From Eledone cirrhosa (lineage: Eukaryota), in contig OZ024742.1 of the NCBI GenBank assembly GCA_964016885.1, positions 95,914,001 through 95,978,000 on the forward strand: a stretch of 64,000 nt of DNA, written 5' to 3'. This document shows, in pieces, positions 4,569-56,518 of the stretch; position 1 is the first letter of the stretch; each line of letters begins with the position of its first letter. Both the position numbers and the translations under genes were made by a program. Under the pieces are notes generated by a model. It saw only the letters and a program-made list of their open reading frames with translations. It was not told the origin of the DNA and made no database searches.

Positions 4569-5679
4569 GTTATATTTGGGGAGGGTCATATTTGCGTAAT
4601 ATTGCCAGAATTAATAACAGAACACACTCACTGTTTGGTTGGTTTTCGCTTCTCGCTGTCTTTTATATATATATATCTGCGATCTAACTTACTCGGTCCT
4701 CAATGTTGCCATTGACTGACCGGCGGTCAAAAATAATACAGATACAATATAGACACAAACACATATATATAGTTTACATAATTTACATAAATCTTTCGTT
4801 GCACATCTGCAACATCGTCAGTGGTGTTATATTCATTGTTCCTCCTGTTGTGTTGTATGTCTACGCCATTTTTTTTTTGTTCAGTCTGTCTATATATTTA
4901 TTTATTTATTTGCTTGTTTGTTTATCTTATTTTATTTTGTCTTCTTTGCGCATGCGTTTGCGTGTGTGTATAGTGTTATGTGTGATGTGTGACTAGTGTG
5001 TATAGTGTTGTGTCTGCTGGGTGACTAGTGTGACCCAGCAGATAGGCAAATCAGAGAGGCCAGTGAAATAGAAATTAGAAGACCAAAGCTAAACAGAAAG
5101 AATGAGTGGAACAACAACAACACCCAAACAAACAACACTGACCTAAGAGAAGTATAAATAAGGAAATAAAATTAAATAAAATAAGATAAATAAATACATA
5201 CACAAGCACATAAACACACACTAGTCACCCAGCAGACACAACACTATACACACTAGTCACACATCACACATAACACTATACACACACGCAAACGCATGCG
5301 CAAAGAAGACAAAATAAAATAAGATAAACAAACAAGCAAATAAATAAATAAATATATAGACAGACTGAACAAAAAAAAATGGCGTAGACATACAACACAA
5401 CAGGAGGAACAATGAATATAACACCACTGACGATGTTGCAGATGTGCAACGAAAGATTTATGTAAATTATGTAAACTATATATATGTGTTTGTGTCTATA
5501 TTGTATCTGTATTATTTTTGACCGCCGGTCAGTCAATGGCAACATTGAGGACCGAGTAAGTTAGATCGCAGATATATATATATAAAAGACAGCGAGAAGC
5601 GAAAACCAACCAAACAGTGAGTGTGTTCTGTTATTAATTCTGGCAATATTACGCAAATATGACCCTCCCCAAATATAAC
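4569..5679. repeat. Long inverted repeat; arms about 464 bp (4569-5032 / 5217-5679), each with an HHR core
   Basis: Arms are near-identical reverse complements; the ORFs at 4703+ and 5545- translate almost identically. Confidence 0.9.
5427..5454 (+). ncRNA. Hammerhead core (mirror copy 4794-4821 on minus)
   Basis: CUGACGA-U-GUUGCA GAUG UGCAAC-GAAA; stems I and III less clear. Confidence 0.55.
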
Positions 5680-6257
5680 TATATATATACATATGTACAT
5701 ATATATATATACATATGTACATTATACATACATATATATATTTTTATATATATATATATAAATAAAAACAATGAAGTTTTATTTACATGTATTTTAGTTT
5801 TTTACATCTAAACAAAACTTCACCATTTTTCTTAATATTCATACTCTGCCTATGCATCAAGTGCTCATTTTGGTACCACCACCAGTAATTCACCAAATCA
5901 CATACACTAAATATATATATATATATATATATATGCATGCATAAGGATGATTGTGTGTGAATGCATATGTCAGTGTGTATCGATGTATATATACCCTGTG
6001 TATATTTCAGCTTACCTCAAATGTTACCAAAATATCACCAACCCTACTGACATACAGTGGATCAGTTAAGTTTAAGATAGATAATATCTACACATTTGTA
6101 TGTACCCTTACTTACATCTTTTTATCTCTTTCTGCAGCTGCACTAGACTGATGCATGATTTCATCTTCTATCATATAGGGATGTATGTATAAGGTGTATG
6201 TATAAAGATGTATTTATAGGTGTATGTATAAAGATGTATGATATATGTATTATATGT

Positions 6258-6443
6258 ATAATTGTGTCTACTTTAGGCACAAGGCCAGCAATTACCCAGT
6301 GCATTACTGGTACTTTATTTTATCGACTTCATAAGGATGAAAGGCAAAGTCAACCTCGGCGGGATTTGAACTCAGATCGTAAAGGGACGTAACTATGCTG
6401 GAAAGCATGGCGTCCGACCCTCTACCGATACTGCCAATCCACC
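6258..6443 (-). mobile_element. tRNA-derived SINE, Meta-domain-like (family A)
   Basis: Sense reads A box TGGCAGTATCGG, B box GAGTTCAAATCC, core GTTGACTTTGCCTTTCATCC..GTCGATAAAATAAAGTACCAG, then ATT tail. Confidence 0.85.
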
Positions 6444-7559
6444 ATTATATGTATTATATGTATGAACAAGATATATGTATAAAGACGTGTATAAGATAAA
6501 GATGTATAAAGACGTGTATAAGATGTACAAGGATATATAAGATACATGTGTAAAGTATTAAGTATGCATGTATGTATGAAAATTGATGTATAAGATACAT
6601 ATAAAAGGATTTCAAATGAATTAGATAGGAGAAATATCATGAATTATTTATATTCTTTTTGTTTCTACTATAGCTATTATGGTCAGTGTGGTAGATAATG
6701 TCATTTCTGCTTTGTCTTATCTTTTGGGCTTGATTCTTAATCTTCAATCAGTTTGTGTGTGTGTGCATTTATGTATATGTATGTGCCTGTTCATGTGTGT
6801 GTGTCCATGTGTTAGTTTATCTATGTCAGTGTTAGTGTGCATGTGTGTTATTGTGTGTCTGAGTGTGCATGTCTATGCATTTGTGTGTGTATATGCAAAC
6901 TTTTGTATGTGTGTACATACATTTGTATGTGTAGGCATGTATTTGTCTATATTTATGTCTGTGTGCATTTGAGTGTGAGTGTGTGTGTTAGTATGTGCAC
7001 ATGTGTGAGTTTTAGAATGTTATCTAAGAAAAAATGTATAACGCTTCCAGAGAGGGGGGCAAGGCCTTTCTGTTGTTATTGTGTAATTGAAAGTAGGTGG
7101 TTTAGTGATTAGAGTCTCTGGCTCATGACCAAGAGGTCATTGCTTCATTTCCAAGACTAGAAAGTACATTGTCTTCTTGAGAAAAGCGCTTTATTTCACA
7201 TCACACCAGTCCATCCAACAGAATAAAATGAGTATTGCCATCAGCGAGAAGTTAACCATGTGATAGACCAGTTTTCGGTCAAGGAAGTGGTGGGGATATA
7301 TACTATCAATCTCTTAACAGATCATGAATCCAAGATATGCTCAGGTCTTAAAGATCTGTCAACTCAAAATAGATTTTAACTCTTTTGATACCAACATGCC
7401 TGATCATACTTTTGGCTTGAGGATATAAAACTGTCTTAAAACCAGCCACTGGGAGATAACAGTGTTGTATACAGTCCTCCCTTCAAGAGAAAAAACTTAT
7501 GCTCTTAGTCACTTAAAAATATTGTGAAACCAGGATCAGCTCTGGCCTTATGCACAAAA

Positions 7560-53340: not shown

Positions 53341-54922
53341 GTGTGTGTATGTGTACCATGAATGGCCAATATTACTAATTGCAAATTGAAATCATGCTGC
53401 TTGAATCACTCTAAACCTGTGCTGTCAATCACCAGGGGACATAAAAATAGGGGTCGATTGTTTGAAGATCAATCAAATAGTCAGGGGTGAGGAGGTTAGT
53501 TTCTTCTCACCTTTATACTCTCACCTGTATTACCGTCTTCATGTGTGCCATGATTGCTGGATAGTTTTATACACATTTTATCGAAGTGATGGATCTATAA
53601 GCGAAATTAAATTCTAATCTATTTAGTGAGGGTATATTTGGTCTATTTATTTGCCTACCATTCTGTATCTATGTTCGTAACTGTAATGATTGAGTGTGCA
53701 TGTGTATTTTAAGATAAGTGTTATATGCATATGATGTACGAGTATATGAATGACATATATATACATGAAGAAATTCACATACTTATTCAAACATACACAC
53801 ACAAACATATCTAAATTTCTATACCATAAAGAGACTAGATTTCCACGTGTATATGTTTTGAATCTACTGACTCATCAATTGTGTGTTCATCTCTGCATCA
53901 TGTCATATTTTGTGTCTTAAACCTTTTGATTCCCTTAAAACTGCTCCTAGGTCTTTAATTTTTAAAGATATTTATTTTAAATTATTTGTATTTATGTACA
54001 TATCTTCCATCAATTTTATGTAAGAATCTAAATCACTCAAATTTCTTGATTATTTTAAAAATTATTCATAGTGTTTGGCATAGAATTTTCATGATGAACG
54101 GTTTTCAGTGATTATATTTATCTAAAGACTTTTCATCATAATTTTATGTACGATCCTTTATTATGCTATATTCCAAACAACAGCTTAATAATGAGAATAC
54201 ATTACTAAATCCCTCCAAAATCCTACATACATTATTGCATTCCATGTGTGATGATTAACCCTTATGATACAAACTCCTACAATCCATCATAATTTTCTGT
54301 AAAAAACTTTAATATATTAAATTATAAACACCAGTTTAACATTTTGTATGCCAAACTGCCTGAAACTGTCTTTGGTTTCATGATACAAAAATGTATATTT
54401 TAAGATATTTATGTTTATCTAAAACCCTTCTATCATAATTTTATATAAGGATCCTTTTGGAATTATGTTCCAGATATTAGTTTAATGCTGAAAATAGTGG
54501 TTATATTACTACATCCTTCTGAATTCTTTATTATTTTCAAAATTATTTGAATATCATTAGCAGTATTTTTCCTTAGAAAGATTGGTAACCAATAGGTGGA
54601 TTCTCATATAATCCTTGTGCCTCAGTGAGGGTAGATGTGAAATATAGTTTTCAGATGTTTAGAATGTCATACGTTAGCCCATTAAACATGTTGTACAGAC
54701 TGTGTATCATTGCATGCGTGTGGAGTTTAACTTTTATCTGATTAATGTGACTTTATTTGGGGGATAACTAACAATGAATAAGAGAGGCATATAAACATAG
54801 TCATATCAATGTATCTATCTAAGTAAATCACTGTAAATATGTTTAATTCTATGCTTTGCTGAGAAGGCCTAATGAGACTAAAATATGCTGAAATGATTAA
54901 GTGATTAAGATATTAGTCATTA

Positions 54923-55442
54923 TATAACGGCGGTGAAGATTCGAAACCGAATCTGAGCTTTCCCGCCTCTGGGACAAGCCGTGGTAACTTGTTTACGCTC
55001 AAGAGGCTAACCCCTTGGGAGAGGCTAAACATAGGTCAGAGGTGTTTATGCCTGACAGAAAATAGGTCAGAGGATATATCCATCTTTCTGACTTGTTTAC
55101 GCTTGGCAAACTAATCCCTTGGGAGACTAACCAAAGTTCAGAGGATATATCTATCCTTCTAACTTCAACTCTTATAAATACAGGGATTGTTTACGCCTCG
55201 AATAGAAAAGAAGTGATATACAGACAAGACAAGTCGCATTTAGAAGCTCTCGTCACGAAAAACCAGTCTGCCACTTATTCTCACCTTCCTGGCTGATCGC
55301 TGACTCCTGCAATACAAGCACACACGCATTCATAGTGAGTTCAGCAATTGTACAAGCACCATTCATTTCTGTTTACACATATTATAATCGTATTCTTTGA
55401 TACTTGAATTTACGTGGCTCGAAGAGCCACCAAATTATTATA
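54923..55442 (+). mobile_element. Possible solo LTR
   Basis: Less AT-rich block, internal direct repeat ACTTGTTTACGCT..CCCTTGGGAGA..TCAGAGG, TATAAATA box; termini and TSD unclear. Confidence 0.35.
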
Positions 55443-56419
55443 GAAAAGTATAATGATTAAACATAAAAATACTGAAGGTATTGATAATAGCCAAAGTAAT
55501 AATAATAATGATAACATTAATAGTAATGGTTATATATTCAGGCTTATACATAAGGATGGGTGACCCATGTAGATGCATGCATAGATAAAGATATAGTGTA
55601 TAAACATTATACACACATGTATACATGTATACATATATGCGCACATGCAGATGCTCACACAAATGTATACATGCACATATATATACTAGCATATATAAAC
55701 ATACACATCCATATAAATATATACAAATACATTCAATACATATGTACATACATAAACAGGTGCATACACATACTTACATATAACATGCATGATATCTATA
55801 TATGTGTGTGTGTATATATATATATATATATACTTACATGTGTCTGTGCATATGTTTATATATATATATTTTTGCTTGTGAGTGTTTCACTATATACCAG
55901 TCAACCATATGTGTAAGATTGAAAGATATCAGATCTAGGATTAACATTTAACAGATTAATATTGTTTCAGATCAACAGATGTAAAGACCAAATGTAAAGA
56001 CTGTTAATTACCTATGTGTGTTTTTGTGTGTGGTGCTGTTCATATATTTTTGAATATGGACATGCATACATATATATTAATCTCTGTGTTTATGCATATA
56101 TATATATGTATGATATGTATCAAGAAAAACGAATGTTAAACGATAGAGATGTCTGTGTACATATATATATATATATATGTGTGTGTGTGTATATATATAT
56201 ATATATATACGTATATATATATATACACACACACACACACATATATACATATATATTTAACCCGTGCTAGTGTAGAAAATGGACGTTAAACGAAGATGAT
56301 ATTTATATATATATATATATATATATATATATATATATAACAAAGAATTGTGGTAAGGAACCAGATGGACCATAATGCACCAGAGTACTCAATACTTAGG
56401 GTAGTAGAGTGGGAAATAG

Positions 56420-56518
56420 GAAAAAGTATGTCCCCGACGGCAGAGCTCAAGCCGTTTCGACGGCTATTTCTGGACCGTCGAAACGGCTTGAGCTCTGCCG
56501 TCGGGGTCATACTTTTTC
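56420..56518. repeat. GC-rich hairpin (44-bp arms, 1 mismatch, 11-nt loop) built from the 3' half of a hammerhead
   Basis: GACGG-loop-CCGUC-GAAAC-GGC..GCC-GUC-GGGG. Confidence 0.85.

What the first reader, a model, noticed from the sequence alone, without database searches (positions are those of the whole stretch)
4569..56518. Recurrent tail-out palindromes carrying paired hammerhead ribozymes, inserted in (TA)n
Seen: eight inverted structures, at 4569-5679, 13984-14138, 22516-23284, 23452-23885, 38644-38972, 45180-45647, 49903-50989 and 56420-56518. They come from about seven unrelated non-coding sequence families yet share one geometry: the HHR reads minus in the left arm and plus in the right arm, so 3' ends point outward, usually into (TA)n. 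At 49903-50989 the right arm holds only the unit's 3' end. Established: Penelope-like elements carry minimal type I HHRs in their pLTRs and often leave inverted pLTR copies. Inference: a PLE RT/GIY-YIG machinery primes cDNA from both strands of a cut (TA)n site and joins the products at their 5' ends, spreading many ORF-less ribozyme parasites. Read-through from either side would give a long hairpin RNA with a ribozyme in one arm.
Basis: partly seen in the sequence, partly recalled or inferred. Interest (0 to 1): 0.8.

Follow-up and report, generated by a model that had tools for sequence, protein, structure and literature searches.

The report
Head-to-head Penelope retrotransposon insertions
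These palindromes are common, mostly cut-short ends of protein-coding Penelope-like jumping genes sitting in TA repeats, usually with a short extra tail on one arm only, and were likely made when the element's enzyme copied the same RNA sequence from both sides of a DNA break; the layout is already known, the likely mechanism is not settled.

Summary
All eight inverted structures exist and point 3' ends outward, 15 of 16 ends into (TA)n. They are not mainly ORF-less parasites: six of seven families are 3' ends (pLTRs) of Penelope-like elements (PLEs) coding RT plus GIY-YIG-type endonuclease (five Hydra-type, one Neptune/Nematis-type). Only the 435-bp tandem family is an ORF-less retrozyme. Both core boxes lie in both arms in five of eight structures; three families carry variant cores. 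In a random 0.8 Mb of the genome, 36 of 39 opposite-strand neighbours are tail-out, and 30 of 33 resolved pairs have one tailed and one tail-less arm. Head-to-head copies, one-sided tails and opposite-strand hammerhead pairs are published PLE traits. What this adds: arms share private variants, and either arm is the longer one (19 vs 20), which argues against simple snap-back and favours priming from both target strands at two RNA start sites (about 0.65). The retrozyme carries the same insertion signature. Read support at this locus was inconclusive; no expression data.

The parts
4509..5684 (.). Family A insertion: left arm (minus, 5032-4509) with tail of about 57-60 bp; right arm (plus, 5031-5684) tail-less and 184 bp longer, starting in the ORF's last codons. 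pLTR of a young Neptune/Nematis-type PLE. Hammerhead core boxes at 4821(-) and 5427(+).
13984..14225 (.). Family B insertion: left arm tail-less (14048-13984), right arm with 88-bp tail; U4A core at 14069(+). pLTR of a Hydra-type PLE.
22516..23290 (.). Family C (ORF-less 435-bp retrozyme unit): left arm unit 1-379, tail-less; right arm unit 34-435 with 56-bp tail; about 4-bp overlap at the junction; canonical type I hammerheads at 22769(-) and 22984(+).
23365..23891 (.). Family D insertion: left arm with 89-bp tail, right arm tail-less; hammerheads at 23552(-) and 23785(+); 78-bp filler from a family E ORF at the junction. pLTR of a very young Hydra-type PLE.
23990..27160 (+). Decayed, 5'-truncated Hydra-type PLE (RT, linker, endonuclease remnants, 3' UTR) ending in a family E pLTR with hammerhead at 26966: shows family E is the end of a coding element.
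38644..39067 (.). Family E insertion: left arm tail-less, right arm 117 bp longer and with 94-bp tail; hammerheads at 38744(-) and 38872(+).
45017..45647 (.). Family F insertion: left arm with 163-bp tail, right arm tail-less and 231 bp longer; U4C cores. pLTR of a Hydra-type PLE.
49903..50989 (.). Family C partial tandem on minus plus a short inverted 3' end; the one case with tail on both arms and no (TA)n on the right.
56340..56518 (.). Family H mini-insertion: left arm with 79-bp tail, right arm tail-less; both stop inside helix II, so only the 3' half of the hammerhead is present. Parent is a Hydra-type pLTR with a U3-A8 core.

Best explanation
The palindromes are 5'-truncated, head-to-head insertions of Penelope-like retroelements (six coding families, one ORF-less retrozyme) in (TA)n, likely made by priming reverse transcription from both strands of the cut target on the same RNA sequence. 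Shown: family identity, tail-out geometry, one-sided tail, shared private variants between arms, either arm longer. Inferred: the GIY-YIG domain nicks both strands in (TA)n; one end starts cDNA at the distal RNA start site (tailed arm) and the other 56-163 nt further in (tail-less arm); both cDNAs stop early and independently and their 3' ends are joined with little or no homology. The one-of-each rule suggests a single, probably dimeric, particle serving both ends. The hammerhead rides in the pLTR and appears in both arms only when both cDNAs get past it. The retrozyme likely borrows this machinery in trans from a tandem or circular RNA.
For: Coding parents: near-intact ORFs of 1054-1150 codons for A, whose model's best fold matches are TERT; pLTR-ORF-pLTR copies for D and B; ORFs upstream of F, E and H ends; Hydra motifs (RWK-like, DKT, CxCX5C, CxxC/CxH) in B, D, F, H, with linker and endonuclease motifs in E. 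Geometry: 36 of 39 tail-out in the random sample; 30 of 33 resolved pairs one tailed plus one tail-less (p 7e-7 against 0.5, the most that independent choice allows). De novo: 11 of 13 inverted repeats with motif calls in both arms read minus-then-plus, none plus-then-minus. Same template: mirrored non-majority bases 4-9 times the shuffled-partner rate in all seven families, above all 300 shuffles. Symmetry: long spacer from tail-less arm 20, from tailed arm 19, up to 3.3 kb on the tail-less side; one exact H junction occurs 14 and 11 times in the two orientations relative to the tail. In vitro, a PLE protein cuts and extends both strands, starts at two internal RNA sites that bound the tail, and is a predicted dimer (PMC11167929).
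Against: No biochemistry on these families; the in vitro work is on a lizard Poseidon element and does not address inverted copies in the parts read. Spacer origin was resolved in only 39 of 148 pairs, most from similarity-selected loci (random subset 3:3). Several junctions are perfect palindromes centred on a self-complementary 4-mer, as snap-back predicts. Mirrored variants could also come from gene conversion between arms or from two RNAs of one source locus. A crude test on neighbouring motifs within 2 kb gave 15 out, 10 in, 13 same-strand. No autonomous partner of family C was found. Reads did not bridge a junction.
Confidence: 0.65

Rival explanations
1. Self-priming (snap-back): one strand folds back and copies itself, possibly on an antisense RNA, giving a hairpin intermediate that the endonuclease then resolves, trimming the tail from one end.
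For: This is the published reading of PLE head-to-head repeats (PMC3846280; tail by 'EN-mediated resolution', PMC8557442). It explains shared variants and perfect-palindrome junctions.
Against: A copied arm cannot be longer than its template, yet the tail-less arm supplies the spacer in 20 of 39 resolved pairs, including A, F and C in the window, and can itself be a partial tandem. It survives only if either end is trimmed at random after synthesis; tail ends coincide with RT start sites in vitro.
Confidence: 0.2
2. Two separate particles, each with its own RNA, prime the two broken ends, or two insertions land in the same TA run one after the other.
For: Tail-in neighbours separated by TA runs exist (3 of 39 random, 31 of 208 selected), so repeated use of one run happens.
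Against: The printed tail-out junctions are nearly all free of TA runs; arms share private variants; independent particles would give at most 50% one-sided tails, not 30 of 33.
Confidence: 0.08
3. The inverted arm arises after insertion by DNA repair or replication template switching.
For: One perfect TA-centred palindrome at 12733-13014 duplicates sequence found nowhere else in the fetched DNA; small spacers can flip between inverted arms (recalled).
Against: Outer ends stop at a fixed, family-specific internal site and enter (TA)n without copying flank.
Confidence: 0.04
4. Fold-back read chimeras or assembly errors.
For: Arms of A are 99.6% identical; reads did not bridge the junction.
Against: Arm-to-arm differences of 0.5-5.9% by family, one-sided tails at fixed sites, unpaired spacers up to 3.3 kb, same layout at well over 100 loci.
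Confidence: 0.02
5. TIR DNA transposons or MITEs with fixed ends.
For: TA flanks; family H looks like a 100-bp hairpin MITE in its best hits.
Against: Junction position and arm length vary copy by copy; ends are asymmetric; parents code RT. A true Tc1/mariner-type element at 47970-48870 differs: symmetric ends and transposase domains.
Confidence: 0.01

Closest known systems
Endonuclease-bearing PLE insertions with inverted pLTR and tail (PMC3846280; PMC8557442 Fig. 2 legend)
   Same: Inverted 5'-truncated copy at the 5' end, head-to-head, tail on one end only, pLTR plus tail running into the ORF start (family A tail is about codons 8-27).
   Different: Tails here are 56-163 bp against the 30-40 bp described; very high density (about 45 tail-out pairs per Mb for these seven families); published model is self-priming.
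Hydra clade PLEs (PMC8557442, section 11)
   Same: DKT, CxCX5C, CxxC/CxH motifs, RWK-like motif in B, D, H, hammerheads, (TA)n targets.
   Different: No tree with reference elements was built; three families have variant ribozyme cores.
Minimal hammerheads of metazoan PLEs (PMC4209133)
   Same: Type I motifs with short helix III in pLTRs; U3-A8 variant; pairs 100-700 bp apart on opposite strands already noted in Schistosoma.
   Different: Family-wide U4A core (49 of 54 copies) was not found described in the passages and listing seen; activity untested.
Non-LTR retrozymes (PMC7229834; bioRxiv 10.64898/2026.07.22.740005)
   Same: Family C: ORF-less tandem unit with canonical type I hammerhead; PLEs proposed as mobiliser or origin.
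   Different: Family C shows the PLE insertion signature itself (one-sided tail, head-to-head copy, TA target); term searches of those two texts showed no such description; unit of 435 bp is slightly above their 170-400 nt.
LINE-1 twin priming (recalled, not read)
   Same: Both target strands prime cDNA; products joined at their 5' ends.
   Different: In L1 the second primer lands at a variable internal site, giving an inversion without duplication; here both starts are fixed near the 3' end, giving an inverted duplication.

Membership tests
EN+ Penelope-like element | Single ORF with telomerase-like RT | tested here: met
   A: model pLDDT 86.8, top Foldseek hits TERT, RVT_1 below cut-off (E 2e-4); YxDD motifs in B, D, F, H; E by tblastn and frames
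EN+ Penelope-like element | C-terminal GIY-YIG endonuclease | tested here: met
   Motif pattern in A, D, E, F, H; in B only the flanking cysteine motifs. Pfam GIY-YIG did not reach significance, so this rests on motifs.
EN+ Penelope-like element | pLTRs from partial tandem, direct or inverted, with optional tail | tested here: met
EN+ Penelope-like element | Hammerhead motif in the pLTR | tested here: met
   D, E canonical; H U3-A8, 608 exact pattern hits, 0 for reversed control; F U4C, B U4A; A helices I and III doubtful
EN+ Penelope-like element | Target-site duplication | not testable with these tools
   Ends lie in (TA)n, where duplications cannot be read; needs empty alleles
Hydra clade | RWK, DKT, CxCX5C, CxxC and CxH motifs, (TA)n target | tested here: met
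   B, D, F, H (RW followed by R rather than K, absent from the truncated F copy); E partly
Hydra clade / Neptune-Nematis | Phylogenetic placement with reference elements | not tested
   No named reference sequences were in hand
Non-LTR retrozyme (family C) | ORF-less tandem units with type I hammerhead | tested here: met
   48 of 60 unit starts follow a unit 3' end, the other 12 are short 3' ends or inversion junctions; one has an unrelated family A ORF nearby; fold
Non-LTR retrozyme (family C) | Self-cleavage and circular RNA | not testable with these tools
   Needs RNA work
Non-LTR retrozyme (families A, B, D, E, F, H) | No coding parent | tested here: not met
TIR transposon / MITE | Fixed symmetric termini, fixed interior | tested here: not met

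The most novel reading that the evidence does not exclude
PLEs integrate by obligatory, coupled twin priming: one dimeric particle holds one RNA and starts two cDNAs at two fixed sites, one on each target strand, so the tail is the spacing between its two active sites and head-to-head palindromes are the default product; ORF-less retrozymes are moved by the same reaction, from more-than-unit or circular RNA, seeding on the order of 100,000 or more hairpin-forming loci in this genome.
Probability: 0.45. Interest if true: 0.65.

Novelty: new member of a known kind. Interest (0 to 1): 0.35.

Why it matters
How PLEs form tandem and inverted insertions is named as an open problem (PMC8557442). This genome supplies tens of thousands of informative junctions and very young families with intact ORFs, and the counts here separate twin priming from snap-back in a way that an existing in vitro assay can test. 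The retrozyme's insertion signature is structural support for the standing hypothesis that PLE enzymes mobilise animal retrozymes. The elements and their layout are otherwise known biology.

Tried and rejected
Rfam scan: swamped by microRNA models on TA repeats, no hammerhead among the rows shown. Pfam: no family for five PLE ORF pieces, only weak RVT_1 later. PDB sequence search gave two bacterial RTs. A guessed canonical core upstream of family H had no match; the parent core is U3-A8. Idea that H is a fixed palindromic master element: rejected, junctions vary and the window's exact junction has about 25 matches among an extrapolated tens of thousands of H palindromes. Idea that A has a fixed inversion point: rejected, it was the element's own continuity. 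Junction microhomology: measurable only in young copies (0-5 nt); most older junctions were too diverged. Sequencing runs: no RNA holder listed. Two look-ups of earlier scan notes returned nothing.
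Full report
Setting. The window lies in a 3.0-Gb animal assembly. The best protein relative of one element is labelled Octopus vulgaris at 68% identity, so the host is probably an octopod (inference).

Observation. 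Self-BLAST finds all eight inverted repeats. With family references, all eight are tail-out, 15 of 16 ends touch TA repeats, and one unlisted tail-in pair sits at 12997-13730. Hammerhead content is uneven: canonical in both arms for C (22.5 kb), D and E; core boxes with doubtful helices I and III for A; U4C in F (29 of 33 copies) and U4A in B (49 of 54); only the 3' half in H. U4C is reported to lower activity in vitro (PMC3088659, passages). None was assayed.

What the families are. I searched the genome with each arm and read the flanks. A ends ORFs of 1054-1150 codons; the predicted fold matches TERT first and the linker is CX4CxxC. D has a pLTR-ORF-pLTR copy with one frameshift and at least 41 copies identical to the 176-bp query. 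F follows a 637-codon ORF. E ends the decayed PLE at 23990-27160 in the window, continuous over 1.4-1.8 kb in four other loci. B has a pLTR-ORF-pLTR copy. H's parent has a U3-A8 core, 608 exact pattern hits against 0 for the reversed control, downstream of an endonuclease region. B, D, F and H carry the Hydra-clade motifs listed in PMC8557442 section 11, E partly. Only C is ORF-less: a 435-bp unit whose start follows another unit's end in 48 of 60 cases. So six of seven families are cut-short ends of coding elements.

The missed feature. Each family has two fixed 3' ends 56-163 bp apart. In 7 of 8 window structures one arm uses the outer end and the other the inner end. In A the tail is about codons 8-27 of the ORF, and most ends fall where the source continues with TA-like bases.

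Genome sample. I drew 80 stretches of 10 kb, length-weighted from the 13 contigs whose lengths I had. Of 39 opposite-strand neighbours within 5 kb, 36 are tail-out; the 3 tail-in cases are all family H, two of them between separate palindromic insertions. Of the 36, 30 have one tailed and one tail-less arm, 2 two tails, 1 none, and 3 an unresolved end; partial tails were counted as tails, and two A pairs are short matches from sister families. Selected loci give 177 out and 31 in, with 124 of 136 resolved pairs one-sided. In the first 100 listed H core hits, all 11 pairs within 5 kb (9 after collapsing duplicates, counted by eye) are tail-out; among 32 of the 48 rows for D that have a close neighbour, 15 pairs are tail-out and 1 direct. 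De novo, 124 inverted repeats were found; 13 had motif calls in both arms, 11 minus-then-plus and 2 same-strand; the other 111 include SINE pairs, TIR elements and short PLE arms. Motifs number 90 against 14 and 9 in shuffles; a crude neighbour test gave 15 out, 10 in, 13 same. Density is 45 pairs per Mb, about 135,000 if extrapolated; the window is richer than average, but the families were chosen from it.

Mechanism. Arms share non-majority bases 4-9 times more than shuffled partners in every family, while differing from each other by 0.5-5.9%: same template, then ageing. Of 148 one-sided pairs, 39 had a long spacer that could be assigned: 20 to the tail-less arm, 19 to the tailed arm; 103 were bridged by the alignment and 6 unclear. 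One exact H junction occurs 14 times in one orientation to the tail and 11 in the other (12 and 11 after collapsing three duplicates seen), across subfamilies. Simple snap-back from a tailed cDNA cannot make the tail-less arm longer. A purified PLE protein cuts and extends both strands, starts at two internal sites bounding the tail, does not need ribozyme cleavage, and is a predicted dimer (PMC11167929, first two of four parts read). I therefore favour twin priming with coupled start sites (0.65). Self-priming with later trimming of either end stays possible (0.2), and perfect-palindrome junctions fit it. In C both arms can be more than one unit long, so the template was tandem or circular.

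Against artefact. Divergent arms, fixed asymmetric ends and long spacers argue for real DNA. Reads were inconclusive.

Known work. PMC3846280 (passages) describes head-to-head repeats, a tail on one inverted pLTR and a self-priming model. PMC8557442 (passages and section 11) describes the same layout and TA targets. PMC4209133 (first two of four parts) reports opposite-strand hammerhead pairs and U3-A8. PMC7229834 (passages) names PLEs as likely mobilisers of retrozymes; bioRxiv 10.64898/2026.07.22.740005 (first of five parts and passages) derives retrozymes from pLTRs. PMC9977147 (passages) added nothing on inversions. Two searches for twin priming with Penelope terms listed no paper that holds both 'pLTR' and 'twin priming'; older subscription papers on Penelope structure and all supplements were not seen and may already propose it. 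One search for octopus, Penelope and hammerhead listed no dedicated study.

Verdict. Real, genome-wide, and a known PLE signature in new families; the parasite claim fails for six of seven families. The value lies in the symmetry and coupling counts and in the retrozyme's PLE-type signature. Interest 0.35.

Noticed in passing
window 12733-13035: Perfect 282-bp palindrome centred on (TA)n whose arms match nothing else in the fetched DNA, joined by about 7 bp of shared sequence to a short tail-less family B end: inverted duplication of flank by template switch, or a local assembly error.
   Followed up: partly
window 23626-23703: Junction filler in the D palindrome is 95% identical to the neighbouring family E ORF at 24452-24534, in the right arm's polarity: template jump to another family's RNA or to nearby DNA.
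   Followed up: partly
window 47970-48870: Tc1/mariner-type element with about 100-bp terminal inverted repeats and Mos1-like HTH domains, also in (TA)n.
   Followed up: partly
window 3291-4489 (minus): 5'-truncated Neptune-type PLE ORF (RT, CX4CxxC, GIY-YIG pattern) abutting the TA run left of insertion A.
   Followed up: partly
L001-L030 (family C loci): Several arms stop at almost exactly one unit length, at the unit boundary; may reflect one turn round a circular RNA or a transcript start there. Small, selected sample.
   Followed up: partly
family H, random loci L225-L304: Many insertions are only 170-220 bp, both cDNAs ending in or near helix II of the ribozyme: a truncation hot spot.
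   Followed up: partly
L227, L255, L284, L286 and others: More tail-out, TA-flanked palindromes from families or sister families not assigned to the window's seven, so the density given is a lower bound.
   Followed up: no
window 14347, 38534, 56691: Further solo hammerhead-like motifs of E-like or related pLTRs.
   Followed up: no
window 41361-44444 and 45825-47732: Long open LINE-like ORFs (endonuclease plus RT, 1028 codons; RT, 636 codons), type judged from recalled motifs.
   Followed up: no
window 6258-6440 and about ten other places: A 180-bp SINE-like repeat, with tandem copies at 63255-63626.
   Followed up: no
L180, L186, L190: Family A ORF has an asparagine-rich insert before the RT, like those reported in rotifer PLEs.
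   Followed up: no
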